Shown: positions 5,238 through 64,000, counted from the stretch's first letter. The stretch is DNA of 64,000 nt from Oceanispirochaeta sp. (GCA_963663385.2 CAXXXD010000003.1:160001-224000); one strand, 5' to 3'. Program-made: numbers and translations. Notes: generated by a model not told the origin, from the sequence alone.

Positions 5238-7232
5238 TTATGATCTCCTCAAAAGAGGCATGAACAGACCGCCCTGCACGGTCCGGTTCTGAAAATCCCG
5301 GCACCGCCCTGTATCGGTTTCATACCAGTCCGAGAAGGGAACCCTGTCCGGAGTCTCTCTTAAAAAGCGGAATACCGGGCGAATCAGGGCTGCCCGGTCC
5401 TCCTTCGATTCGGCGAAGGAGGCGCACCATAGAATCCAGTCGCTTTTCGTGTATTTCGCCCGGTTGTCCAGCGGCACTCCGTATTTATCCTGTTTCCGCA
5501 GGTACCAGGCGGTCTCCCTGGCAAAAATGCGGGGAGAGAAGAGGTTTGTCTCCAGAACCAGATCCCAGATGAGGTTGTATTTCTGTCCCCAGGACTCCGG
5601 TCTGTCAAAGGTCAGCGCTGAATGATCCGGTTGGAGAAATACCCGTTCCTCCCAGTCAGCCGCCAGCGATTCACTGCGCTTCCTGTATCCTTCAGCCTCT
5701 TCCTTTTCTCCAAGGGCTTCCAGCAGGATGGCATAAGAGGCTATTCCAAGAACGGCCTTGGCCGCCAGGTTGGCGTTGTGGGCCAGATGGCCGGCAAAAT
5801 CATCGGTACAGAGCTGGTTGCCCGGATCCCTCCCGTACTCGAGGAGGTAGCGCACCCAGCTGCCGTAGAGGTCCCGGTTTTCCCCGACGAATGCCAGATC
5901 GCCGTCGGCCCGATAGAGGGCCGCCGCCATTATCAGCATGTTCCCGCACTCCTCCACAGGCATCTGGCGGTCAAAATCATAGAGGTTGGAACCCTTCGGG
6001 TAGGAGTAATACGGCGGAATGGTGTCGTTTCTATCCTGACCGTCTTTTTTACCTGGGGCCAGCTCGGAGTTCAGAGCATAGATCTGACCGTTGGCATAGG
6101 GGTATCGGCCCACGTCATGGGGGGCGAAGTCGTACTCCCATACGGGTCTGCGGGCAAAAGTTAGAACCGGTCTTATCATGCCCTTGACCAGTTCGGGATT
6201 ATAGAGGAGATAGAGCGGTACGGAAGGATAACTGACATCCACCGTGCCTATACAGCCGTTGGAATGGCACTCTTTGGAGAGAAAAACCGGATGCCCGTTC
6301 CGGTCGGCGATCAGTTTATGGGCGGCTATGGACTGGCGGAATGCCAGCGAGAGGATTTCGGCGTATTCGCCGGAAATGGCGTTCTTCGCTGACCGGGACA
6401 CCTCTTCATCCATACGGGTACACCGTTCCATGACGGTCTGGTAATCCCTTTCCGCGTCCTCCAGCGCTTCAAATATGGTCCGGCCTTCACGGGCCCAGTA
6501 TCCCCGGTACGTTTCGCCGAAATAAACCAGAGAGGCGGTATCGTCATAAGCCAGAAGGAGCCTGGCCGACGTTTCTGCCGAAACCTCATGAAACTGCAGC
6601 AGAGCTCCGATAGCCATCTCCGATCCGGGCTCGGTATCGCATGTAAAAAGACGGTGACCGCTGTCATTTCCCACGGCCAGATAGAGATACCCCCAATCAA
6701 TGGTAATTCCGTCACCCGAGTGGTTGAGCGGAGTCTGTTTCGCTTTTCCCAGAGATATGGCACTGAGACTTTCGAGCTTATGCTCCCGTACAACCATATT
6801 CTCCGGGTTGTCTCCACCTCTGCAGTGGGACTCATCCATTGTAATGCTCAGATCTACGGAATGGGTTTTTCCGTCCATCGGCCGAACGGAAAAGGACAGA
6901 TAGGTTACAGGCCTGGAAACCAGGTCCAGGTCATCGGGCAGAAGGGGGGAGGTAAAGCGAACTGAGAGCTCTATGCCTTCGGCTGCAAAAGTGTAGATTG
7001 ATGAAAGGGCCGTGAGATCAAAACCGGTTTGCTCCATGGTTCTCCCGGAATTGTCGAGTCCCATAAAACGGTAGACGGTTCCGTCAATGCGGGCCGTACC
7101 GGTCAGGGGCTGCTTTCTTCCTGTCCAGTTAACCACTTCGCTTTCGTAGAGCTTGTCCGAAGGGGACCAGAGCGAAAAATAGGGGTCATGCGTCACCAGG
7201 GGGACGGCGGGGTATCGTTTTGTTTTTGTCAT
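5238..7232 (-). CDS. GtaA 'glutaminase'-like / DUF4965-DUF5127-DUF1793 protein, probable (alpha/alpha)6 glycoside hydrolase-like enzyme
   Basis: 'PAVPLVTHDPYFSLWS', 'FLSKECHSNGCIGTVDV', 'FAPHDVGRYP', 'MPVEECGNM', 'QLCTDDFAG', 'YTKSDW'; GGAGG SD upstream. Confidence 0.8.
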   Translation of the reverse strand: MTKTKRYPAVPLVTHDPYFSLWSPSDKLYESEVVNWTGRKQPLTGTARIDGTVYRFMGLDNSGRTMEQTGFDLTALSSIYTFAAEGIELSVRFTSPLLPDDLDLVSRPVTYLSFSVRPMDGKTHSVDLSITMDESHCRGGDNPENMVVREHKLESLSAISLGKAKQTPLNHSGDGITIDWGYLYLAVGNDSGHRLFTCDTEPGSEMAIGALLQFHEVSAETSARLLLAYDDTASLVYFGETYRGYWAREGRTIFEALEDAERDYQTVMERCTRMDEEVSRSAKNAISGEYAEILSLAFRQSIAAHKLIADRNGHPVFLSKECHSNGCIGTVDVSYPSVPLYLLYNPELVKGMIRPVLTFARRPVWEYDFAPHDVGRYPYANGQIYALNSELAPGKKDGQDRNDTIPPYYSYPKGSNLYDFDRQMPVEECGNMLIMAAALYRADGDLAFVGENRDLYGSWVRYLLEYGRDPGNQLCTDDFAGHLAHNANLAAKAVLGIASYAILLEALGEKEEAEGYRKRSESLAADWEERVFLQPDHSALTFDRPESWGQKYNLIWDLVLETNLFSPRIFARETAWYLRKQDKYGVPLDNRAKYTKSDWILWCASFAESKEDRAALIRPVFRFLRETPDRVPFSDWYETDTGRCRDFQNRTVQGGLFMPLLRRS

Positions 7233-7387
7233 TGTATCCTCCGAAAATATCCTATGCCGGGATAGACATCAGGAAAATGGCTGAAATTGTATAATAGATA
7301 TCCAATACTATACTGCTTGTATTCTGAGATATTCAAAAACATCAATTTTGTTGACTTCAAGGTGTTTTAAGAGCAATAATCTTCTTT

Positions 7388-8242
7388 ATGATATATACGG
7401 AAGATATCCGAAATAATATTCCTGCAGAATCCAGAGAGGAGTTCATACCCGTTGATATTCCGGGAGCGGAACTTGCCGGCAAGTGGGGCATTCAGCTGGC
7501 CGGCATCAGCGATCTGACCGAAGGCTATCAGATGGGACGGCGGGATTGCCCCTTTACCGTGCTTATCTGCGTTCTGTCAGGAGAGGGATTCTGTTATTTC
7601 GACGGGAAGCCGCACGCCCTGAAAGAGGGAAACATCCTTATGATCCGTTTCGGCGAGGATCATATCTACCGGGCTTCGGGAACCTGGCGAATTCTGTGGT
7701 TTCACCTGGACTGTTGTTTCCGGAAGGAAACGGAGTCCCCTTTCTTTATCAGATCCGATGGGGAGCTGATTCAATCGCTTTACCGAATTTCCCTGACCTT
7801 TCTGAGGGAGAGCCAGGGGGAAAGGAACGGTATGATCCTGTATAATCTCGGGAGTCTGATTGCTTTAATGATACGCCGTATTCTGGCTTACCCCTCATCG
7901 GGAGTGCGGCAGAGCCGGGACAGGCAGATTATAGAAAGGCTTCGCCGGGAAGCGAGCCGCGATCTGTCCAGGGACTGGACTGTGGGTGAACTGGCTGAAC
8001 TGGCAAATATTACACCATCCTATCTCTTCAAGATAACGGGGCGTACCCTTGATCTTTCGCCTCAGGGATTTGTGACACAGATGAAAATGGAGCTGGCCGT
8101 TCAGCTCCTTAATCATTCCGATTATCCCCTGAAATACATCGCCGACAGGCTGGGCTACTCTACGCCTTACGCTTTTTCAAAGGCTTTCAGGAAGCGTTAC
8201 GGTGTCAGTCCGGGGGCTTTCCGGAATGGAGAGAGGTCCTAG
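7388..8242 (+). CDS. AraC family transcriptional regulator (cupin + HTH)
   Basis: 'IADRLGYSTPYAFSKAFRKRYGVSPGAFR' HTH; N-terminal cupin-like region. Confidence 0.92.
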   Translation: MIYTEDIRNNIPAESREEFIPVDIPGAELAGKWGIQLAGISDLTEGYQMGRRDCPFTVLICVLSGEGFCYFDGKPHALKEGNILMIRFGEDHIYRASGTWRILWFHLDCCFRKETESPFFIRSDGELIQSLYRISLTFLRESQGERNGMILYNLGSLIALMIRRILAYPSSGVRQSRDRQIIERLRREASRDLSRDWTVGELAELANITPSYLFKITGRTLDLSPQGFVTQMKMELAVQLLNHSDYPLKYIADRLGYSTPYAFSKAFRKRYGVSPGAFRNGERS

Positions 8243-8298
8243 TCCGGGGATTGCCTCTGAATCGATGTTTCCGATACCGTAACCTTATATCATTTCTT

Positions 8299-10401
8299 TC
8301 ACTCAAAAACCATCCGGAACCGGGCCAGCCCGTCATCCTCATACCACATGGGGAAATTGGTACCCCAGAGATTATTGGAGATATTGAAGTGGACTCCTTC
8401 CCGCATATCGGGCTGGGACTGGTCAAATTCCAGTATCCTCGGCCTGCCGGGACTCAGCAGAGGTATGTCGAGGGTTTCGATTCTCAGGGATTCACCGCCA
8501 TCGAGGCAGCTGATTCCCCTCTCCGTGCAGTGGAGAGCCCTGTTGCCTCCGTTGATGATTTCGAATGGAGAGACGGATATTCCCATTTTGTCTATACTCC
8601 ATTCCGCCTGTTCCGTAAACTGCGGGATAAAGGAAAACCAGAGCGCCTCAGGTATGCGGCAGGCTTTCTTGTCCGACCATTTCAGTTCGATCTCAATCTC
8701 TCCGCTGCCGGGAAATGTGTATGTAATTCCCACATACTTCGGTGCGCCGAATCTCTCTGTGCATTCTCCGGGCATTTCCAGGAATACCGCAAGGCGTTCC
8801 TTTCCATGGCTGTTCCGGAAAAATGAGACCCTCTCTGCCTCGAAGAATTGATGGTTCAGATCTGTGAGATTCTCCAACCCCGGTTTGGTGTAGTCGGGAA
8901 CAGCCCAGCCTGAGGTCCAGTCCTTGTTGATATTGTAACGTTCGTGAAAAACCCTGTAGGAGGAGGCTGTAAACAGTTCGTATCTGAATAGCCCCAGAGC
9001 CTTTCCTTTTTCGCACCATGACCGCCCCGTTCCTGTATCTGCCAGGAAGGTCAGAGCGCCTGTGCTCCGTGAGAAGGAGAACCGGAATCCGCCCATTTCC
9101 ATTTCATCCGGGGGATCGATTTCCCTGAATTCCTTTGCCATCATCTTTTTCCGGGAAAGAGGGGCGGGGGATATCATGGCCAGGGCCTCTTCGGCTTCTC
9201 TTCTGAACCGGTCGTTCTGAAGGGACGCTACAGCCTGATCGATGTAGTTCCGCTGTTCCTTCCAGGAGGATTCGAACCTGCTGTATGAAGGTCCGATAGG
9301 ATCGTCTCTTTCAGAGCTATGGTCGTCCTCATCGAGTTTAAAGGCGCAGAATCTCATATCGGCACCGGTAGTGATATCCCGTGGCACCGAATCTCTTTGT
9401 CTCGCACTGGTAAAATCCTCCCGGCTGTAATTAACATAGTCTTTCAGATGAGTCTTTTCATCCATTCCCCATGTGTGCTCGGGAACCATGAGCAGTTTTC
9501 CTGTGAATTCTTTAAATCCAGGTTCCTCTTTGCATTCTGCGGATTCTTCCCATTTCCGTCTTAGACGGCTTAACTGTCTGAACCGGGCCGTTTTAAGAGG
9601 ATCCGAACCGACTCCGTGAATCCATGTGTCTCCCATCTCTCCCGTAACGAGGGGAAGATTTCCGCTTACGGTTCGCAGGCGTTCGGCAAAATGGTCGAGG
9701 GTCGATCCGGTGATGGTTGCGCCCGGGTATCTGTCGTGCAGTCTTCCGAATTCCTGATTCAGCTCCTCTACCGAAGGGGGGCCGCAGTTATCTCCCGAGT
9801 GAGCAAAGAAGAGCAGATCGTTGAATCCGTCGATTTTCAGAGGCTGACCGTAGCCTGAAACGTAATTGACCGTCACCTGACTCCCGCAGGGAGACCGCCA
9901 GTTGAAAAGAGGGGGCAGGTCGATGGTTGTGGAAGCGGGATTAACTCCTATATGGAGGAATTCGACACCCGCATCGGCCAGAAGCGGAATGATAGCTCTG
10001 CAGTGACCGGGGACATCAGTCATTTTCCCCGCTATGGTTTTCCTGCCGAATCTTTGGTCGAGGCGTTTAGAAATGGCCAGCCCCGCCCGGAAGAGGCTGC
10101 TGTCCATATACTCCGAGTGGACTGTGAAGGGGAGGGCGTGCCAGGCAATATCTCCGGAGAGGATGGCCTCCTCCATCTTTCCCCTCATTTGTCTGCTGCC
10201 CTTCTCCAGGTATTCCTCAATCAGCCAGGATCCTGTCGTCCATATAAAGCGATTGCCCTCGCCTTTCTTTCTCGTTCTCTCGGCAAGATCCAGAGCCGCC
10301 GGGATGAAGTTACGGAAATAATTATCTGTAACAGACGCCGCCGTATCGGTAAACCCTATATCAAGATGGGTCTTAAAAACCACGTGAATTGTTTTCTTCA
10401 T
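8299..10401 (-). CDS. DUF5054 protein with GH38-like N-terminal domain (putative glycoside hydrolase)
   Basis: 'IHVVFKTHLDIGFTD' metal-binding HxD motif, 'MTDVPGH', 'GDTWIHG', 'EHTWG', 'NNLWGTNFPMW'. Confidence 0.75.
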   Translation of the reverse strand: MKKTIHVVFKTHLDIGFTDTAASVTDNYFRNFIPAALDLAERTRKKGEGNRFIWTTGSWLIEEYLEKGSRQMRGKMEEAILSGDIAWHALPFTVHSEYMDSSLFRAGLAISKRLDQRFGRKTIAGKMTDVPGHCRAIIPLLADAGVEFLHIGVNPASTTIDLPPLFNWRSPCGSQVTVNYVSGYGQPLKIDGFNDLLFFAHSGDNCGPPSVEELNQEFGRLHDRYPGATITGSTLDHFAERLRTVSGNLPLVTGEMGDTWIHGVGSDPLKTARFRQLSRLRRKWEESAECKEEPGFKEFTGKLLMVPEHTWGMDEKTHLKDYVNYSREDFTSARQRDSVPRDITTGADMRFCAFKLDEDDHSSERDDPIGPSYSRFESSWKEQRNYIDQAVASLQNDRFRREAEEALAMISPAPLSRKKMMAKEFREIDPPDEMEMGGFRFSFSRSTGALTFLADTGTGRSWCEKGKALGLFRYELFTASSYRVFHERYNINKDWTSGWAVPDYTKPGLENLTDLNHQFFEAERVSFFRNSHGKERLAVFLEMPGECTERFGAPKYVGITYTFPGSGEIEIELKWSDKKACRIPEALWFSFIPQFTEQAEWSIDKMGISVSPFEIINGGNRALHCTERGISCLDGGESLRIETLDIPLLSPGRPRILEFDQSQPDMREGVHFNISNNLWGTNFPMWYEDDGLARFRMVFE

Positions 10402-10619
10402 AATGAACCCATTCTATGAACAGTTGCTGGATCAGTCAATTTATGGAATGAGAGGGGGATGTTTTGTTTAATTCTTTTTAAGATAAAGGAATAATTTTTT
10501 TATGTTTGATAAGTTGTATCAAAAGAGGTATTTTATTTGCAACAAAATATATATAATTGTATCATTAATTGATGCTGACTTTCTTGTTTTGTAGTATGAA
10601 TAAGGGGTCGAAGGAACAG

Positions 10620-57135: not shown

Positions 57136-58035
57136 CTAGCGCCAGTTTAAACGGTAGATCGGGATCCTTTCTTTAATCCCCTTTAATTTGGCAGATCCGC
57201 ATAGATCAAATAGTTCTTTCTTCCTGCGGGTTTTCTTCTGGTAATCATCGTAAAAGGTTTTGGATGCAAGGATCCTGTTCTGTTCCCCGATTGCTTTTCT
57301 GACAGATGTAAAAGCTGTCTTTTTCAGCCCTTCGATACGGAAAGTAATATTGATATCTATGCCATGAATATCCTCGGTTGCCGGATCTATAACATAGGTT
57401 CGGCCCTTATGCAGGCCGATGCGGACATTGATGGGAGGATTTTTAGTTTTTTTATTCCTTTTTTCCAGAACCTTCAGGATTTCCATGGCCGTATTGACAG
57501 CCTGTGTCGAACTGGCAAAGGTCGCCAGAAAACCGTCTCCCGTATTTTTATAGAACTGAATACCTGCTCCGTAGAGTATCGGTTTGGTTATATTGCTCAG
57601 ACGCTGTTTTGAATGAAAGGCTATCTGTTCGTCTTTCCGGGCCTGTGTGGTGGAATCGCAGAGATCCAGCACCATAATTGATGATTCGTTTTCCACTTCG
57701 GACAGAGAGATAATCTGAGACTCTCCCGATTGAATCGTTACAACCACCGCCTCTGCCAGCTTGATCTGGACGGGAAGGTGAAACTTCATCTGCCTGCCTT
57801 TCAGGGGATTCCAGCGGTAATCCATATAAACCTCGGTTCCGTTGGAGGATCTTTCATCTTTAATATAGAGGTTGTTGTCCTTTATAATCAGGGAGGCGTG
57901 GGTGTCTGATATATATTTGTTTTGAATGGTAATATCGTGTTCGGAATTTCTTCCCAGAAAAATTCTGTCCTGTTTGAAAGAATAAAACTGACTGGTGTGG
58001 GAGAGTATATCCTTTACTTCGATTCGCAATTCCAT
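57136..58035 (-). CDS. FHA domain fused to class III adenylate/guanylate cyclase domain
   Basis: FHA 'LGR....DI......IS..HA...D..SSNGT'; cyclase 'VLDLCDST', 'KNTGDGF', 'RIGLHKG', 'DIHGIDINITFRIE', 'LKGI'. Confidence 0.85.
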   Translation of the reverse strand: MELRIEVKDILSHTSQFYSFKQDRIFLGRNSEHDITIQNKYISDTHASLIIKDNNLYIKDERSSNGTEVYMDYRWNPLKGRQMKFHLPVQIKLAEAVVVTIQSGESQIISLSEVENESSIMVLDLCDSTTQARKDEQIAFHSKQRLSNITKPILYGAGIQFYKNTGDGFLATFASSTQAVNTAMEILKVLEKRNKKTKNPPINVRIGLHKGRTYVIDPATEDIHGIDINITFRIEGLKKTAFTSVRKAIGEQNRILASKTFYDDYQKKTRRKKELFDLCGSAKLKGIKERIPIYRLNWR

Positions 58036-58689: not shown

Positions 58690-59727
58690 CTACATCAGTG
58701 TAATGCTGTTTTCAGAGCAATCTTTGCGGACGTTTTCGGGCCACAGACTTGCCTGAACCTCCCCGATATGAGCTTTTCTAAGCAGAAACATACACAGACG
58801 GGACTGACCGATTCCACCGCCCACGGATTCGGGGAAATCTCCGGCCAGAAGCCTTTTATGAAAGGTCAGCTCTTTTCTCTCCTCACAGTCCCGGATGGAC
58901 AGCTGGCGGAGAAGGGCTTCCCTGTCTACTCTGATACCCATGGAGGAAATCTCGAAGGTTCTTCCCAGAACGGGGTTCCAGAGGATTATATCCCCATTCA
59001 ATCCCTTTGTACCGGCGCTGTTTTCCGTACTCCAGTCATCATAGTCGGGCGCTCTGCCGTCATGTTCCTTCCCGTCCGAGAGGGCTGCTCCTATTCCGAT
59101 AATAAACACGGCTCCGTATTTTTCGGCAACCTTCGATTCCCTTTCCACGGGGCTCAGGTCGGGGTACATTCTGCATAATTCCTCGGACTGAACAAAGGTT
59201 ATATCTTCGGGGAGGATCGGTTCAATTTCAGGATAACTCTCATAAACCATAAACTCCGTGGCTTTCAGTGTGGCATATATCTTCTTTACCACGGATTTAA
59301 GAAAACCGAGGTTTCTATCCTCTTTCCGGATTGCCTTTTCCCAGTCCCACTGATCAACATAGTAGGAGTGGAGGTTATCCGGTTCCTCATCGGGACGGAT
59401 AGCATTCATATCCGTATAGAGGCCGTAACCCAGGCTTATCTTGTAATCCCCCAGCATCATCCTTTTCCATTTGGCCAGGGACTGAGGTATCTCTGCGGAA
59501 CCGCCCATCCCTTTGGGAGTAAAGGATACGGGCTTTTCAATTCCGTTCAGATCGTCGTTGATACCGGTACCCGCTTCGATAAACAGGGGCGCTGTTACAC
59601 GGCGCAGCCGGAGCTGGGCGGAAAAATAGGTTTGAAAGAATGCCTTGATGTCGGCAATGGCTTTTTCTGTTTCTTCCAGTGTCAGAATGGATTTATAATG
59701 GGGGGGATAATAGTATTCAGCGCTCAC
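58690..59727 (-). CDS. asnA: Aspartate--ammonia ligase
   Basis: 'DDLNGIEKPV', 'SLAKWKR', 'HSYYVDQWDWE', 'HDGRAPDYDDW', 'GGGIGQSRL'. Confidence 0.96.
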   Translation of the reverse strand: MSAEYYYPPHYKSILTLEETEKAIADIKAFFQTYFSAQLRLRRVTAPLFIEAGTGINDDLNGIEKPVSFTPKGMGGSAEIPQSLAKWKRMMLGDYKISLGYGLYTDMNAIRPDEEPDNLHSYYVDQWDWEKAIRKEDRNLGFLKSVVKKIYATLKATEFMVYESYPEIEPILPEDITFVQSEELCRMYPDLSPVERESKVAEKYGAVFIIGIGAALSDGKEHDGRAPDYDDWSTENSAGTKGLNGDIILWNPVLGRTFEISSMGIRVDREALLRQLSIRDCEERKELTFHKRLLAGDFPESVGGGIGQSRLCMFLLRKAHIGEVQASLWPENVRKDCSENSITLM

Positions 59728-59908
59728 AATTCCTTCCTTTTTGCAATCAATCTCTTATATATGGGAATCATTCCCTGAAATAAAGCTGATTGAACTGTTT
59801 TGCTGTCTGTCAGAAGCCGGACGAGGCAGCATTGAGTTTTAATATACAGAAAAACTACCATCTTCGTGCCGAGAAGACAAGGGGAATCTTTTTTTGGTTG
59901 ATCCTGTT

Positions 59909-60250
59909 TCAGCAGGCAACAATTTCCTTAATCATAAATTCCTTTCCGCTGATAATTTCCCACTCCCTGCTGCTGCAGTGGGGGCATACGCTTTTGTTCC
60001 TGATTATATTAAAAACTTTACTGCATCTGCCGCACAGGGCATTGCCCGGGAGTATTTCAATTTCCAGTTTTGTATTTTCCATTGCAGTACCGTCAACCGC
60101 TGCGGGATAGCAGTCCCTGAGGAATTGGGGAATCATGGATGACAGTTCCCCCACCTGCAGGATAATTGTATCCACTTTGGTCAGACCATTCTTCAGGGCA
60201 AAGTCCTCAACGGTTTTAATGATTTCTATTACAACACCTAATTCATGCAA
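59909..60250 (-). CDS. hypA: Nickel metallochaperone HypA
   Basis: N-terminal MHE Ni motif and two CxxC motifs (CGRC, CPHC); 'GKEF.IKEI'. Confidence 0.93.
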   Translation of the reverse strand: MHELGVVIEIIKTVEDFALKNGLTKVDTIILQVGELSSMIPQFLRDCYPAAVDGTAMENTKLEIEILPGNALCGRCSKVFNIIRNKSVCPHCSSREWEIISGKEFMIKEIVAC

Positions 60251-60275
60251 ATATTCTATCCTCTAATAATATTAA

Positions 60276-60390
60276 TCCCCTTGGTCACAAACTTCGTTTG
60301 TTGCTCAGGTATGCATCCGGCCTCTCCCCCTGGGAGAGGCCTCATTTCCCTAATCAGAATCGAACATTGCTCCTGAGCGAAGTTGAGGGA
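60276..60390. repeat. Nested-palindrome intergenic element (REP-like or structured RNA)
   Basis: Nested arms TCCC/GGGA, AACTTCG/CGAAGTT, CTCAGG/CCTGAG and a perfect GGCCTCTCCC-CCT-GGGAGAGGCC hairpin. Confidence 0.55.
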
Positions 60391-63087
60391 TTACTCCCCC
60401 GCAAAGGCTTTCTTGAGCTTTCTGATAGGGGTTTTTACCGCTATTTTTGCTTTTCGCTTCAGTATGTGTTTGATGACCTTCGGTTTCATCTCACTGAGAT
60501 CAACACCTTCCGCATCGTATTTCCGTACAAGGGAGATGGCGTCAAACTTACAAACGGTGGTACAGGACCCGCAGCCGATGCAGGCATACTCGTCTACAAC
60601 AGTGGCGCCGCATCCAAGGCATCGTTCCGTTTCTTTTCTGATCTGTTCTTCCGTCAGGATCCCTCTCAAATCGTCAAAGGTTTCGGTTGATTTTCTGTCC
60701 GTGCTGATATTGGCGGCTTTTTCTCTCGGAAGACGATCGTATCCGGCCAGATCCAGGTTTGTCTTGTCCAGAGGTCGGTAATCCCGATTCAGTCGCCCCA
60801 GGGTCAGGCTCTGACCGTTTTGAACATAACGGTGAATGGATATGGCTCCTTCCTTGCCCAGGGCAATGGCATCAATGGCAAACTTCGGCCCTGTCAGGGC
60901 GTCACCGCCGGCAAAGATATCCGGTTCGCCGGTCTGGAATGTCACCGGATCGGCTTTCACGGTCCGGTTGGGGTTGAGCTCAACTTTTGAACTTTCCAGC
61001 AGATTTCCCCAGTCCATCCCCTGTCCGACAGAGAGCAGAACATTGTCCGCTTCGACGATTTTTGTGCTGCTTTCATCATAGCGGGGACTGAATCTCCCGT
61101 CTTCATTAAAAACGGAGAGGCATTTTCTGAATTCGACGCCTGTCACTCTGCCATTTTCCGAAATAATCCGTTTGGGTCCCCAGGAGTTATTGATCGCGAT
61201 CGCTTCCTCTTCGGCCTCTTCAATCTCTTCATCCAGAGCAGGCATTTCTTTTCTGCTTTCAAGGCAGTACATATCCACCTTTTCCGAACCGGTTCGGGCA
61301 GCAGTTCTGGCAACGTCTATAGCGACATTTCCCCCGCCGATAACAACGGTCTTTCCGCTCATCTTATCTGCCCTGCCGAGGTTTACATCCCGGAGAAAAT
61401 CAACTCCGGTTACAACGCCTTCCGCATCTTCGTTTTCAAGACCGAGGCTTCTTCCCGTCTGGGCTCCGATGGCAAGATAGAAGGCTTTATAGTCCTGGCC
61501 CCTCAGTTCGTTCAGGGTAATATCCCTGCCGACTTCAACGCCCGTTTTAAACTCGACACCCATCTCCCGGAGTATCTCGATCTCTGCCCTGATCACATCT
61601 TTTTCCAGTCTGTAAGAGGGGATCCCCAGAGTAAGCATTCCTCCCAGGGCTTCCTGTTTTTCAAATACAGTCACCTTGTACCCGTCAATTGCCAGGTAGA
61701 AGGCGCAGGACAGACCGGCCGGACCGGCCCCTACAATGGCAATCTTTTTGCCGTATTCATGCTTCTGGCGGGGAATGAAGCGGGTTTCGCTGTGAAGGTC
61801 CTTTTCGGCGATAAATTTTTTGATATCATCAATGGCAATGGGATCGTCAATATCCCCTCTGGTACAGGCGGATTCACAGTTCCGGGGGCAGATACGCCCG
61901 CAGACGGCGGGAAAGGGATTCTCTTTCTTGATCAGTTCGAGGGCTTCCGTATATTTGCCCTGGGCTGCCAGTTTGATATAACCCTGAATCCCTATATGCG
62001 CAGGGCATTCCGCCTTGCAGGGACTGGAGCCGGTTTCAACAACAACCTCCCGGTTTGTTCTGTAATCGGTGTTCCACTTCTCTTCTGTCCACTCCGTATC
62101 ACGGGGCGTTTCTTTTCGTTCGGGTAGGGCAACGGGGTTCTTTTCACAGATCTTCTGTCCCAGTTTAAGGGCATTGGTGGGGCAGGTTTCAACACACTCT
62201 CCGCATCCCACACAATTGTCCCTGTTTACCTCAGCCACATAATTGGAGCGGACCATATCGTGGTTGTCCCACATGTTGGCCAGTCTCATATTAAAACAGC
62301 CGCACCCGCAGCAGTTGCAGATAGCATGGGTTTTTCCGGAACCGTCCAGGTTGGGGATGGAGTGCATCAAGCCGTTTGCTTCGGCTCTCTTGATTACTTC
62401 AAAGGCTTCTTCCCGTGTTATTTCCTTACCGCGGCCTGTTTTTATATAATATTCGGCGGCATGACCCAGCTGGATACAGATATCCTCTTTCAGGTGGCCG
62501 CACCCTTCCCCGACCGCTTCCCGGGACGTCCGGCAGGCACAGTCGGAAACGGAAAAAACTGTATTATCATTAAGGTATTTTGACACTTCCTCGTAGGAGG
62601 CATGCCTTGTTTTACCGTCAATGGCTGTTTCTATGGGGATAACGCGCATGGGTCCCATTCCCACCGGGATATTCCCGGCCGCCATAGGTCCTTTCCTCTT
62701 CCCGTATTCATCAAAGAGCTCTCCCAGAATGGGAAGCCGCTCTACCTGTTCCTTATTGTTAACGATCATTTCCATATGACCGGGGACCCATATTTCATTC
62801 CAGTACTTATTAACCCCGTCGATTTCGTTGACAAAGGCCAGACCCACCATAGCCAGCTCCCATAGAAGCTCTTCGGTTTTTTCAGCGGTTTTTCCGCATT
62901 GGGGCGCAATATCCTCTGCGCTCAGGGGTTCCCTCAGTTTCAGACAGAGGGCCACATCTGCCATCTCGTCAGAACAGATCGGTTCCAGAATCCTGTATTC
63001 AGGGTATTCGGGTTTGATCTCCATTCTGCTTCCGCGTTTTGTTCTGCTAATTTTATTTGCCAGATCCAGAAGTTTTTCATTAACCAT
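60391..63087 (-). CDS. Large Fe-S / FAD oxidoreductase: Cys-rich N-terminal domain, ferredoxin, GltD/NfnB-like NAD(P)H module, C-terminal ferredoxin
   Basis: 'CACR', 'CNCCGCGC', 'CVGCGECVETCP', 'PCKAECP', 'CGRICPRNCE..C', GAGPAG, GGGNVAID, 'RCLGC', 'CIGCGSCTTVC'; start taken at MVNEKLL. Confidence 0.88.
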   Translation of the reverse strand: MVNEKLLDLANKISRTKRGSRMEIKPEYPEYRILEPICSDEMADVALCLKLREPLSAEDIAPQCGKTAEKTEELLWELAMVGLAFVNEIDGVNKYWNEIWVPGHMEMIVNNKEQVERLPILGELFDEYGKRKGPMAAGNIPVGMGPMRVIPIETAIDGKTRHASYEEVSKYLNDNTVFSVSDCACRTSREAVGEGCGHLKEDICIQLGHAAEYYIKTGRGKEITREEAFEVIKRAEANGLMHSIPNLDGSGKTHAICNCCGCGCFNMRLANMWDNHDMVRSNYVAEVNRDNCVGCGECVETCPTNALKLGQKICEKNPVALPERKETPRDTEWTEEKWNTDYRTNREVVVETGSSPCKAECPAHIGIQGYIKLAAQGKYTEALELIKKENPFPAVCGRICPRNCESACTRGDIDDPIAIDDIKKFIAEKDLHSETRFIPRQKHEYGKKIAIVGAGPAGLSCAFYLAIDGYKVTVFEKQEALGGMLTLGIPSYRLEKDVIRAEIEILREMGVEFKTGVEVGRDITLNELRGQDYKAFYLAIGAQTGRSLGLENEDAEGVVTGVDFLRDVNLGRADKMSGKTVVIGGGNVAIDVARTAARTGSEKVDMYCLESRKEMPALDEEIEEAEEEAIAINNSWGPKRIISENGRVTGVEFRKCLSVFNEDGRFSPRYDESSTKIVEADNVLLSVGQGMDWGNLLESSKVELNPNRTVKADPVTFQTGEPDIFAGGDALTGPKFAIDAIALGKEGAISIHRYVQNGQSLTLGRLNRDYRPLDKTNLDLAGYDRLPREKAANISTDRKSTETFDDLRGILTEEQIRKETERCLGCGATVVDEYACIGCGSCTTVCKFDAISLVRKYDAEGVDLSEMKPKVIKHILKRKAKIAVKTPIRKLKKAFAGE

Positions 63088-63101
63088 ATAATTTTCCCTT
63101 T

Positions 63102-63776
63102 TTATGCCTTGTTCCACTCTTTTATTTCATGGCGGAGCCAGTCCGCCCAATCGTCAATTCCCTCGCCCGTTTTGGCGGAGATGGGGATGATTGTAATTTC
63201 CGGATTCAGTTTTTTTACATACTCCGTAAGTTTTTCCATATCAAAATCAAAGAAATCCATGGCATCAATTTTATTCACCAGGAGTACATCCACCATTCTG
63301 AACATAACAGGATATTTGAGGGGTTTGTCATGTCCTTCCGGAACACTCAGAATCATGGCGTTCCTTGCGGCTCCCGTATCGAATTCGGCTGTACAGATCA
63401 GGTTGCCGATATTTTCCAGGATCACAAAATCCGTTCCTTCGGTTCCCATGGAAGCCAGACCCTGTCTGGTCATATCCGCATCAAGGTGACACATCCCGCC
63501 CGAGTGGAGTTGAATTACTTTCGTCCCTGTATCTGCCACAGTGTGGGCGTCTACATCCGAATCGATATCGGCCTCCATCACACCTATGCTCATTTCATTC
63601 CCGAGAGCCGCAATGGTTTTTAAAACCGTTGTTGTTTTTCCGGAACCGGGAGAGGACATCAGATTCAGCAGAAATACCTTGTCTTCCTTAAGCTGAGACC
63701 TTAAGGCTTCAGCCTGTCTGTCATTCCCTTCGTAAACACTCTTTTTAATTTCGATAACTTTATATTTTTCATTCAT
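63102..63776 (-). CDS. hypB: Nickel-insertion GTPase HypB
   Basis: 'MSSPGSGKTT', 'CHLDA', 'ENIGNLIC.AEFD', 'SVPEGHDKPLKYP', NKID, SAKTGEG. Confidence 0.94.
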   Translation of the reverse strand: MNEKYKVIEIKKSVYEGNDRQAEALRSQLKEDKVFLLNLMSSPGSGKTTTVLKTIAALGNEMSIGVMEADIDSDVDAHTVADTGTKVIQLHSGGMCHLDADMTRQGLASMGTEGTDFVILENIGNLICTAEFDTGAARNAMILSVPEGHDKPLKYPVMFRMVDVLLVNKIDAMDFFDFDMEKLTEYVKKLNPEITIIPISAKTGEGIDDWADWLRHEIKEWNKA

Positions 63777-63873
63777 TTCTGCATTACCACCTATAACATC
63801 AGGCTTTCAGCCCGTATCTGAACCTTTTTATATCTGTACCGCTGTACAGAGAATAAAAAATCGAACATAATTC

Positions 63874-63924
63874 ACCGAACAATGTTCGGTAATTATAATA
63901 GGCGGCAGCACAGGATTTTGTCAA
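63874..63924 (-). promoter_or_regulatory. Promoter of the hypB operon with palindromic operator ACCGAACA-A-TGTTCGGT (63874-63890)
   Basis: Minus strand TTGACA (63924-63919), 18 nt, TATTAT; a perfect 8-bp inverted repeat lies just downstream of the -10 box. Confidence 0.6.
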
Positions 63925-64000
63925 TAAAATTTTATCTATAAAAAAAGATATCCGTATTATGGAAAATCGATCGGTTCTGCAGTATTCTAGAGGCAGAATC

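What the first reader, a model, noticed from the sequence alone, without database searches (positions are those of the whole stretch)
59909..63776. hypB / Fe-S flavoprotein / hypA operon with no hydrogenase or urease: possible new nickel enzyme
Seen: intact HypB and HypA bracket a single ~898-aa gene in one apparent operon, with a promoter and operator before hypB. No [NiFe]-hydrogenase subunit, hypCDEF, urease or CODH gene lies in the operon. The middle protein joins a GltD/NfnB-type NAD(P)H/FAD module and ferredoxins to an N-terminal domain whose ligands fit no standard ferredoxin spacing (CACR...C.H....C, MH, ICNCCGCGC). Established: HypA and HypB only deliver Ni, whereas HypCDEF build the Fe(CN)2CO site. 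Inference: HypAB may load Ni into the Cys-rich domain, giving an undescribed NAD(P)H-linked Ni/Fe-S redox enzyme.
Basis: partly seen in the sequence, partly recalled or inferred. Interest (0 to 1): 0.8.

Follow-up and report, generated by a model that had tools for sequence, protein, structure and literature searches.

The report
IsrA-like reductase with private nickel chaperones
Two nickel-delivery genes flank a large iron-sulfur flavoenzyme in a bacterium that has none of their usual client enzymes, so the enzyme is probably a nickel enzyme of a kind proposed in 2023 but never tested at the bench.

Summary
On the minus strand lie hypB (63776-63102), an 898-aa Fe-S flavoprotein (63087-60391) and hypA (60250-59909). 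Upstream are a strong promoter-like site, a unique 8-N-8 palindrome and a divergent TetR gene.

The own genome (98% complete) gave no match for a [NiFe]-hydrogenase large subunit, HypD, urease or CODH. It has one hypA and one true hypB.

The order hypB-enzyme-hypA recurs in 70 of 80 related loci across several phyla. Of 79 genomes carrying it, 62 show neither HypD nor urease alpha above cut-off.

Nine cysteines and two histidines in the N-terminal domain are invariant in 38 of 38 full-length relatives.

The idea is not new. Kronen et al. 2023 (mSystems, PMC10134865) described this family as "clade 9" homologues of the putative isoprene reductase IsrA. They reported the HypA/HypB/TetR neighbourhood and proposed nickel insertion at the same Cys-rich site. 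No biochemical test turned up in four literature searches. This scan has reached the same family before on other DNA.

Verdict: a real, clean new member of a published but untested family. Nickel dependence is likely but not shown, and the substrate is unknown.

The parts
63959..64000 (+). 5' end of a divergent TetR-family regulator gene. It runs on to C3:224633, beyond the window.
   Evidence: L001:2460-3134, 224 aa. PF00440 TetR_N 52 bits; several TetR-type NCBIfam hits.
63895..63924 (-). Sigma-70-type promoter-like site, TTGACA-18-TATTAT, reading into hypB.
   Evidence: 11 of 12 matches, the best site in 59700-64000. A consensus match only.
63874..63890 (.). Perfect palindrome ACCGAACA-N-TGTTCGGT just downstream of the -10 hexamer. 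Probable operator of the adjacent TetR.
   Evidence: I5, 100% complementary. The only copy in the whole genome at up to 2 mismatches. Binding by TetR is inferred.
63102..63776 (-). hypB, nickel-binding GTPase (224 aa).
   Evidence: TIGR00073 236.9 bits against cut-off 121.2; PF02492 65 bits. GSGKTT, CH...C and NKID are visible in the translation.
60391..63087 (-). IsrA-like Fe-S flavoprotein, 898 aa from ATG 63087 (an alternative GTG at 63117 gives 908 aa).
   Evidence: It is 57-73% identical over 850 or more residues to 75 homologues from the 80 loci.
62668..63081 (-). Residues 3-140: winged-helix-like subdomain.
   Evidence: Model pLDDT mostly above 90 here. Best structural matches are ArsR/MarR-type winged helices at Z 6-7.3, which is a common arrangement.
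62230..62595 (-). Residues 165-286: Cys-rich core with C183, C185, C196, H198, C204, H242, C257, C259, C260, C262 and C264. This is the proposed nickel/Fe-S site, 'cluster V' of Kronen et al.
   Evidence: All 11 residues are invariant in 38 of 38 full-length sequences. C183, C185, C204 and C259 are invariant in 78 of 78. Mean column identity is 83%.
62134..62232 (-). Residues 286-318: ferredoxin-type CxxCxxCxxxCP motif.
   Evidence: PF00037 at 296-318 in 908-aa numbering. C292, C295, C298, C302 and C314 are at least 90% conserved.
61792..62028 (-). Fer4_20 domain (two [4Fe-4S] clusters, NfnB/GltD/DPD type).
   Evidence: PF14691 82.7 bits. PDB matches to NfnB, GltD and DPD.
60862..61746 (-). 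FAD/NAD(P)H-binding Pyr_redox_2 module.
   Evidence: PF07992 106.4 bits. NfnB 5jca_L at E 1.7e-70.
60505..60600 (-). C-terminal ferredoxin-type [4Fe-4S] motif.
   Evidence: Fer4_21 and Fer4_7 stretches at 840-871 in 908-aa numbering; weak scores.
60319..60341 (-). 10-bp GC-rich hairpin (GGCCTCTCCC-AGG-GGGAGAGGCC) in the 140-nt gap between the reductase gene and hypA. No T-run follows it.
   Evidence: Read directly. Not listed as a terminator. Function unknown.
59909..60250 (-). hypA, nickel metallochaperone (113 aa, TTG start).
   Evidence: PF01155 107.6 bits. M1-H2-E3 and C73, C76, C89, C92 are invariant in 38 of 38 cluster-linked HypA proteins.

Best explanation
This is a TetR-controlled operon, hypB / isrA-like reductase / hypA. 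It encodes a 'clade 9' homologue of the putative isoprene reductase IsrA together with nickel chaperones dedicated to it.

**Proposed mechanism**
1. NAD(P)H reduces the FAD in the NfnB/GltD-type module (shown by homology).
2. Electrons pass along a chain of ferredoxin-type [4Fe-4S] clusters (inferred from motifs and from the published model of IsrA).
3. They reach a nine-Cys, two-His site in the N-terminal domain.
4. HypB, using GTP, and HypA insert Ni(II) into that site during maturation (inferred).
5. The Ni/Fe-S site reduces a small hydrophobic unsaturated substrate, most likely an unactivated or conjugated C=C bond. This step rests on analogy with IsrA and is the weakest.
6. The divergent TetR repressor sits on the unique palindrome over the promoter and releases it when it binds the substrate or a related molecule (inferred).
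For: **Gene identities.**

**No known HypAB client in the own genome** (98.13% complete, 4 contigs).
- No match to PF00374, PF00346, HypD or urease alpha.
- The only Prismane-family protein is hydroxylamine reductase Hcp, not CODH.
- There is one hypA. Of the five cobW-family hits, only the window copy was scored as HypB.
- The four LarA-like genes have their own LarC, with a CbiM transporter next door.

**Synteny.** 70 of 80 related loci show hypB, enzyme, hypA on one strand within 600 nt. The loci come from Clostridia, Spirochaetes, Bacteroidales, Ferrimonas, Mycoplasmatota and Erysipelotrichaceae.

**Carrier genomes.**
- PF00374 in 7 of 50.
- HypD in 10 of 79. Among the first 50 genomes these are the same 7.
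- Urease alpha above cut-off in 8 of 79.
- Neither HypD nor urease alpha in 62 of 79.

**Dedicated chaperones.**
- In 4 of the 7 hydrogenase-bearing genomes a second hypA lies beside hypD.
- That second copy is only 18-30% identical to the cluster-linked HypA of the same genome.
- Cluster-linked HypA proteins from other phyla are 39-67% identical to the window's. All 38 keep MHE and the four zinc cysteines.

**The proposed site.** The Cys-rich core has 83% mean column identity, and its 9 Cys and 2 His are invariant in 38 of 38 sequences.

**Literature.** Kronen et al. 2023 found IsrA, HypA and HypB induced by isoprene and made the same proposal. A 2026 preprint reports hypA and hypB up about 373-fold and 585-fold in isoprene-fed Pelotomaculum cultures (passages only).
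Against: - No metal analysis, activity assay or structure exists for any member of the family (literature searches).
- The window shows no substrate clue apart from the TetR gene.
- It lacks the accessory genes that most relatives carry: DUF5692 in 49 of 80 loci, an amine-oxidase-like flavoprotein in 46 of 80 and an HTH_32 protein in 46 of 80.
- Two loci have the enzyme with neither hyp gene (L024, L057) and two lack hypB (L018, L087). So the chaperones are not strictly obligatory in cis.
- H198 varies in the stand-alone relatives of the N-domain (15 of 40 keep His).
- Fold searches found no resemblance of the Cys core to any solved nickel site. The best Z was 3.5 on a model of pLDDT 65.5, so this is inconclusive.
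- Many carrier genomes are metagenome bins of unstated completeness, so absences there are soft.
- CODH was checked only in the own genome.
Confidence: 0.6

Rival explanations
1. The enzyme is a reductase of the IsrA family, but its Cys-rich site holds an all-iron cluster, for example a double-cubane or an unusual [4Fe-4S]. On this reading HypA and HypB help to fold or assemble it, or deliver a structural metal, rather than a catalytic nickel.
For: Kronen et al. note that the site also resembles P-cluster and double-cubane sites. Nine Cys are more than a single nickel site needs. Two loci have no hyp genes.
Against: HypB scores as a true HypB and keeps the CH...C residues. All 38 HypA proteins keep the MHE N-terminus, which the paper names as the nickel site. 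No Hyp protein is known to assemble all-iron clusters (established knowledge, recalled).
Confidence: 0.2
2. Nickel is inserted as proposed, but the chemistry is not C=C reduction. The site would reduce another small molecule, organic or inorganic, and isoprene reduction would be one specialisation of a broader family.
For: The window protein was not compared with IsrA itself. Other Acetobacterium homologues do not confer isoprene reduction. The N-domain family is very broad, with 1631 representative clusters that include 330-400-aa stand-alone forms. The neighbour sets differ between subclades.
Against: The only functional data for the family concern dienes: isoprene and butadiene. The commonest accessory gene in relatives best matches PDB 2b9w over its full length. 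From recall, not from any call, 2b9w is a fatty-acid isomerase that makes conjugated dienes.
Confidence: 0.3
3. HypA and HypB serve an unlinked nickel protein (LarA homologues, a glyoxalase or another), and their position around the reductase gene is only co-regulation or history.
For: The genome has four LarA-like genes and nickel uptake genes.
Against: The bracket is kept in 70 of 80 loci across phyla. LarC sits with the Lar genes. The cluster-linked HypA proteins are a separate conserved subfamily. In the paper's neighbourhood network of 988 homologues, HypA co-occurs at 0.73 and HypB at 0.56.
Confidence: 0.05
4. The hyp genes are decaying leftovers of a lost hydrogenase system.
For: The genome has no hydrogenase.
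Against: Both reading frames are intact and all metal ligands are present. Scores exceed the curated cut-offs. The same arrangement occurs in many phyla.
Confidence: 0.02

Closest known systems
IsrA, putative isoprene reductase of Acetobacterium wieringae ISORED-2, and its 'clade 9' homologues (Kronen et al. 2023, PMC10134865)
   Same: - Length of about 900 aa.
- An unannotated N-terminal domain with two CxC motifs in a multi-Cys site.
- A ferredoxin motif, Fer4_20, an FAD/NAD(P)H module and a C-terminal ferredoxin motif.
- hypA and hypB next door, and a TetR neighbour as in part of the family.
- 60% identity over the full length to both homologues of A. malicum DSM 4132, which the paper places in clade 9.
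   Different: - The isr operon has two hypA genes and a 4Fe-4S ferredoxin that carries a copy of the N-domain. The window has one hypA, and the genome has only one N-domain copy.
- The gene order here is hypB-enzyme-hypA.
- Identity to IsrA itself was not measured.
- Nothing shows isoprene as the substrate here.
NfnB, GltD and dihydropyrimidine dehydrogenase N-terminal module (PDB 5jca_L, 4ylf_B, 6s6s_G, 1gt8_A)
   Same: Residues about 350-756 match at E 1.7e-70 to 3e-53: two [4Fe-4S] clusters plus FAD and NAD(P)H sites.
   Different: Those proteins lack the 285-residue N-terminal domain. They are not linked to hyp genes and work with other partner subunits.
HypA/HypB nickel delivery to [NiFe]-hydrogenase (and, in Helicobacter, urease)
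   Same: The chaperone families and metal ligands are the same.
   Different: - The genome has no hydrogenase large subunit, HypD or urease.
- Cluster-linked HypA proteins are only 18-30% identical to the hydrogenase-linked copies in the same genomes.
Acetyl-CoA synthase A-cluster and double-cubane cluster proteins
   Same: Cys-rich sites where nickel or extra iron joins an Fe-S cluster. The Cys-Gly-Cys strings in CNCCGCGC recall the A-cluster's Cys-Gly-Cys nickel ligands (recalled). The paper draws the same comparison.
   Different: No sequence or fold similarity was found. This is inconclusive, because the model of the core is weak.

Membership tests
IsrA clade 9 (Kronen et al. 2023) | Full-length architecture of about 900 aa: unannotated N-terminal ~270-285 aa, ferredoxin motif, Fer4_20, Pyr_redox_2, C-terminal ferredoxin motif | tested here: met
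   compared with the description.
IsrA clade 9 (Kronen et al. 2023) | Multi-Cys 'cluster V' site with two CxC motifs in the N-terminal domain | tested here: met
   C183-x-C185 and C257-x-C259, plus C196, C204, C260, C262 and C264, are invariant in 38 of 38 sequences.
IsrA clade 9 (Kronen et al. 2023) | hypA and hypB within a few genes | tested here: met
   They are directly adjacent on both sides. 70 of 80 relatives show the same.
IsrA clade 9 (Kronen et al. 2023) | Close sequence relation to named clade 9 members | tested here: met
   59.8% identity to L067 and 60.3% to L107, both from A. malicum DSM 4132 and both over the full length. The paper lists two homologues of that strain in clade 9.
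IsrA clade 9 (Kronen et al. 2023) | Direct placement in a tree with IsrA (VUZ27132.1) | not tested
   The IsrA sequence was not obtainable through the tools. An Acetobacterium genus scan gave no locus with the isr operon layout.
isr operon proper (isoprene-induced five-gene operon) | Two hypA genes plus a 4Fe-4S ferredoxin carrying the N-domain | tested here: not met
   One hypA in the genome. Only one N-domain copy in the genome.
isr operon proper (isoprene-induced five-gene operon) | Isoprene reduction or induction by isoprene | not testable with these tools
HypB (TIGR00073) | Score above the curated cut-off; P-loop, CH...C and NKxD motifs | tested here: met
   236.9 bits against 121.2. The motifs are visible; their names are taken and from recall.
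HypA (PF01155) | Score above cut-off; N-terminal MHE nickel site; two CxxC zinc motifs | tested here: met
   107.6 bits against 28.9. The ligands are invariant in 38 of 38. TIGR00100 scores 77.7, below its cut-off of 88.1.
[NiFe]-hydrogenase maturation system | Large subunit and HypCDEF in the genome | tested here: not met
   PF00374, PF00346 and HypD: 0 matches in a genome that is 98.13% complete. HypC, HypE and HypF were not searched separately.
NfnB/GltD-type flavoprotein module | Fer4_20 plus a Pyr_redox_2 FAD/NAD(P)H module | tested here: met
   NF009410 scores 480.7, below its whole-protein cut-off of 516.
ACS A-cluster-like or double-cubane-like nickel/Fe-S site | Fold or sequence similarity of the Cys-rich core to those proteins | tested here: inconclusive
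   Not among the matches. The core model has pLDDT 65.5.

The most novel reading that the evidence does not exclude
The nine-Cys, two-His N-terminal domain may be a portable catalytic module that holds a new kind of nickel/iron-sulfur cofactor loaded by a specialised HypA/HypB pair.

If so, the ~900-aa IsrA-like reductases would form a large unrecognised class of nickel enzymes that hydrogenate unactivated C=C bonds. The 330-400-aa stand-alone '4Fe-4S binding proteins' of Bacteria and Archaea, which share the domain (1631 representative clusters), might belong to it too.

This spirochaete has no other HypAB client, which would make it one of the cleanest natural systems in which to prove the idea.
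Probability: 0.4. Interest if true: 0.85.

Novelty: new member of a known kind. Interest (0 to 1): 0.4.

Why it matters
Only about nine classes of nickel enzyme are known (recalled). If IsrA-type reductases do carry nickel, they would add a class. They would also explain why many anaerobes without hydrogenase or urease keep hypA and hypB.

The chemistry, biological hydrogenation of unactivated alkenes, bears on isoprene turnover, on lipid biohydrogenation in guts and on biocatalysis.

This locus adds no new idea, but it is a tidy test case:
- a minimal three-gene operon;
- a single private repressor with a unique operator;
- a nearly complete genome with no competing client for the chaperones.

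Tried and rejected
- **Complex prediction.** N-domain with HypA (collected) gave no verdict (score 0.01). It counts neither for nor against binding.
- **Fold searches, whole N-domain**. They found only common winged-helix matches for residues 3-140 (Z up to 7.3).
- **Fold search, Cys core alone**. The best Z was 3.5, from a weak model, so no fold could be assigned. ACS and double-cubane proteins were not among the rows, which does not exclude them.
- **Sequence search of solved structures with the N-domain**. It matched only the ferredoxin motif.
- **Finding IsrA itself.** A scan of 27 Acetobacterium genomes showed three groups of homologues. The most distant one fetched (L106) has TetR, enzyme, hypA, hypB, which is not the isr layout.
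- **TetR as a common neighbour.** Only 4 TetR-like ORFs turned up in the 80 loci, and none was adjacent. L106 does have one, and the paper gives a co-occurrence of 0.21.
- **A regulon for the palindrome.** There is no second copy in the genome.
- **Identity of PDB 2b9w.** Searches did not confirm from papers that it is the fatty-acid isomerase, so that stays recalled.
- **Literature.** Searches for a biochemical study of the family found only Kronen 2023, Jin 2022 (listing only) and two 2026 preprints.


Full report
**1. What is in the sequence**

Three minus-strand ORFs fill 63776-59909.

- **hypB** (63776-63102, 224 aa). It scores 236.9 bits on TIGR00073 against a cut-off of 121.2. The translation shows GSGKTT, a Cys-His pair, a later Cys and NKID.
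- **The middle gene.** It can start at GTG 63117 (908 aa). More likely it starts at ATG 63087 (898 aa), which lies 14 nt after the hypB stop behind AAGGGAAAA. Pfam finds a ferredoxin motif, Fer4_20 (82.7 bits), Pyr_redox_2 (106.4 bits) and a weak C-terminal ferredoxin motif. Nothing covers the first ~285 residues. The best NCBIfam model, NF009410, scores 480.7, below its cut-off of 516.
- **hypA** (60250-59909, 113 aa). It needs its TTG start to give the N-terminus MHE, and scores 107.6 bits on PF01155.

A 140-nt gap between the reductase gene and hypA holds a 10-bp GC hairpin with no T-run after it.

Upstream of hypB lies the best promoter-like site of the region, TTGACA-18-TATTAT at 63924-63895. 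Directly after it comes a perfect palindrome, ACCGAACA-N-TGTTCGGT, at 63874-63890. A divergent TetR-family gene starts at 63959 and runs past the window end. The palindrome occurs nowhere else in the 5.3-Mb genome, even with two mismatches.

Genes further out look unrelated. Downstream are asnA, an O6-methylguanine methyltransferase, an FHA protein, an MFS transporter and a GH31 hydrolase. Beyond TetR are an AraC regulator, an FGE-sulfatase-like protein and others.

**2. The genome has no usual client for HypA and HypB**

The window is G000:C3:160001-224000. The genome has 4 contigs and is 98.13% complete.

| Searched for | Result |
|---|---|
| [NiFe]-hydrogenase large subunit (PF00374) | 0 matches |
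| 49-kDa, group-4 type (PF00346) | 0 matches |
| HypD | 0 matches |
| Urease alpha | 0 matches |
| Prismane family | 1 match, hydroxylamine reductase (862.8 bits), not CODH (30.6 bits) |
| HypA | 1 match |
| cobW family | 5 matches; only the window copy was scored as HypB |
| LarA-like | 4 matches |
| LarC, with a CbiM-type transporter beside it | 1 match each |

So the nickel-pincer enzymes have their own nickel inserter. HypC, HypE and HypF were not searched separately.

**3. The arrangement is conserved**

The N-terminal 330 residues have 3942 hits among proteins of 493-1572 aa. The top 120 are 70-94% identical. Most are about 890-923 aa long, with two shorter entries of 588 and 800 aa. Where they carry a name, it is generic: 'FAD-dependent oxidoreductase', 'NADPH-dependent glutamate synthase beta subunit-like oxidoreductase' or similar.

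A genome scan returned 80 loci. A strict script found hypB, enzyme and hypA on one strand within 600 nt in 70 of the 80. The other ten are:

| Loci | What differs |
|---|---|
| L050 | Script artefact; one search shows the normal order |
| L038, L079, L083, L080 | Cut by contig ends |
| L019 | Order is enzyme-hypA-hypB |
| L018, L087 | No hypB |
| L024, L057 | Neither hyp gene |

Seventy-five homologues align to the window protein over 850 or more residues at 57-73% identity.

Other recurrent neighbours are DUF5692 (49 loci), an amine-oxidase-like flavoprotein (46), an HTH_32 protein (46) and a GntR regulator (11). Same-genus relatives carry a longer cassette: HTH_32, flavoprotein, a DsbD_2-like membrane protein, hypB, enzyme, hypA, DUF5692.

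The window has only the core trio plus TetR. The genome's two DUF5692 genes lie elsewhere. No homologue of the flavoprotein, the HTH_32 protein or the membrane protein was found in it with those queries.

The distribution among relatives is patchy. The N-domain was found in 14 of 41 genomes searched, counting the own genome. Among other genomes of the same genus it was found in 6 of 10, at 23-77% identity.

**4. Carrier genomes mostly lack hydrogenase and urease**

- PF00374 was found in 7 of 50 carrier genomes.
- HypD was found in 7 of the same 50 (the same seven genomes) and in 3 of 29 more, so 10 of 79.
- Urease alpha was above cut-off in 8 of 79, or 12 of 79 at E up to 0.001.
- 62 of 79 have neither HypD nor urease above cut-off. 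The count is 59 of 79 if the weak urease hits are included.

Many of these genomes are metagenome bins of unstated completeness. CODH was not surveyed in them, and the acetogens among them have it according to the paper.

In 4 of the 7 hydrogenase-bearing genomes a second hypA sits beside hypD. Those copies are 18-30% identical to the cluster-linked HypA of the same genome. Cluster-linked HypA proteins from other phyla are 39-67% identical to the window's. M1, H2, E3 and the four zinc cysteines are invariant in all 38. This points to chaperones specialised for the reductase.

**5. The N-terminal domain**

The domain alone (residues 1-280) finds 1631 representative clusters at E up to 0.001. 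They include ~900-aa enzymes and 330-400-aa stand-alone proteins, which are named '4Fe-4S binding protein' in an independent atlas.

An alignment was built from the window, 37 loci and 40 stand-alone proteins (78 sequences).
- C183, C185, C204 and C259 are invariant.
- R186, C196, H242, C257, C260, C262 and C264 are at least 90% conserved.
- In the 38 full-length sequences, all nine cysteines plus H198 and H242 are invariant.
- Residues 138-286 have 83% mean column identity across phyla.

The AlphaFold model of residues 1-335 has pLDDT 81.4. Residues 3-140 resemble winged-helix domains (Z up to 7.3, a common arrangement). The Cys core modelled alone is weak (pLDDT 65.5) and matches nothing above Z 3.5. 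No solved structure matches residues 1-275 by sequence.

The C-terminal half matches NfnB, GltD, dihydropyrimidine dehydrogenase and NfnB-like modules of formate dehydrogenase complexes.

**6. It is already in print**

Notes from earlier runs of this scan pointed to Kronen et al. 2023, mSystems (PMC10134865). I read its sections 8, 9 and 10. The paper makes these points:
- It names IsrA, a 901-aa oxidoreductase of Acetobacterium wieringae ISORED-2 that is induced by isoprene.
- It defines 'clade 9' as the ~900-aa homologues found in Firmicutes, Spirochaetes, Tenericutes, Bacteroidetes, Proteobacteria and other phyla.
- For 988 homologues it reports these neighbours: HypA (0.73), HypB (0.56), DUF5692 (0.4) and TetR_N (0.21).
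- It notes that the organism has no [NiFe]-hydrogenase or hypCDEF.
- It proposes that HypA and HypB insert nickel at a Cys-rich 'cluster V' with two CxC motifs, and compares that site with the ACS A-cluster and with double cubanes.
- It states that biochemical proof is missing.

Two 2026 preprints on Pelotomaculum repeat the idea and report strong induction of hypA and hypB by isoprene (passages only). Searches for 'isoprene reductase', for IsrA with nickel, for biohydrogenation with HypA and HypB, for HypA and HypB with FAD-dependent oxidoreductase, and for DUF5692 found nothing else. Subscription journals are not covered by that library.

The window protein is 60% identical over its full length to both homologues of A. 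malicum DSM 4132. The paper places homologues of that strain in clade 9. I could not compare it with IsrA itself. The window is not an isr operon in the strict sense, because it has one hypA and no N-domain ferredoxin.

**7. Most likely mechanism and rivals**

Shown by homology: an NAD(P)H/FAD module with two [4Fe-4S] clusters, two further ferredoxin motifs, and intact HypA and HypB with their nickel ligands.

Inferred:
- Electrons run from FAD through the clusters to the nine-Cys, two-His site.
- HypB and HypA load nickel there.
- The site reduces a hydrophobic unsaturated substrate.
- TetR senses that substrate.

I put the nickel-dependent reductase reading at 0.6. The C=C part is the least secure.

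Rivals:

| Rival | Confidence |
|---|---|
| All-iron site, with the Hyp proteins in another role | 0.2 |
| Nickel site with chemistry other than C=C reduction | 0.3 |
| HypAB serving an unlinked enzyme | 0.05 |
| Decaying leftovers of a lost hydrogenase | 0.02 |

There is a substrate lead from relatives. The flavoprotein present in 46 of 80 loci best matches PDB 2b9w over its whole length (E 5e-26; the next hit is 1.4e-08, on the FAD end only). I recall 2b9w as the Propionibacterium acnes polyunsaturated fatty-acid isomerase, which makes conjugated linoleic acid. No call confirmed that identity. If it is right, those cassettes would first make a conjugated diene and then reduce it. The window genome lacks that gene, so the lead may not apply here.

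**8. Verdict**

However, the system is a new member of a published, biochemically untested family, and this scan has met the same family several times on other DNA.

Its value is as a clean test case: a minimal operon, a private repressor with a unique operator, and a near-complete genome with no other client for HypA and HypB.

Noticed in passing
window 60319-60341 (-): A 10-bp GC-rich hairpin (GGCCTCTCCC-AGG-GGGAGAGGCC) with no T-run lies in the 140-nt gap between the reductase gene and hypA. It might set the ratio of enzyme to chaperone transcript. Its function is unknown.
   Followed up: no
L100:2342-10273 (same-genus genome G056) and 46-49 of the 80 loci: Relatives carry a longer cassette: an HTH_32 protein, an amine-oxidase-like flavoprotein, a DsbD_2-like membrane protein, hypB, the enzyme, hypA and DUF5692. 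The HTH_32 protein shows weak IS481-transposase similarity (99.6 bits, below the 224 cut-off). The flavoprotein best matches PDB 2b9w over its full length (E 5e-26), which I recall as a fatty-acid isomerase. The membrane proteins may import nickel or the substrate.
   Followed up: partly
G000:C4:450310-454321 and C4:435350-435976: LarC (nickel insertion) and a CbiM-type transporter lie near one of four LarA-like genes. The genome therefore uses nickel for pincer-cofactor enzymes, with separate machinery.
   Followed up: partly
L106 (G128:C1:2054000-2072000), positions 6143-10549: One Acetobacterium species has TetR, an IsrA-like enzyme (51% identical to the window's), hypA and hypB in a different order. 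TetR control therefore recurs in a distant subclade.
   Followed up: partly
proteins P0138-P0270: Stand-alone proteins of 330-400 aa, made of the same Cys-rich N-domain plus a ferredoxin motif, are widespread in Bacteria and Archaea. They keep C183, C185, C204 and C259 but often lose H198. Whether they sit beside hyp genes was not examined.
   Followed up: no
L003:1-1056 (G000:C2:1102610-1103665): An IS110-family transposase gene lies next to the hydroxylamine reductase (hcp) gene.
   Followed up: no
window 57136-58035 (-): A 299-aa protein has an N-terminal FHA domain. Its C-terminal 200 residues matched no Pfam family at E up to 1e-4.
   Followed up: no
G000:C2:623447-624382 (L105:5448-6383): A DUF5692 gene 76% identical to the cassette-linked copy of a same-genus relative sits alone between a periplasmic binding protein gene and a SIMPL-domain gene, far from the hyp operon.
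   Followed up: partly
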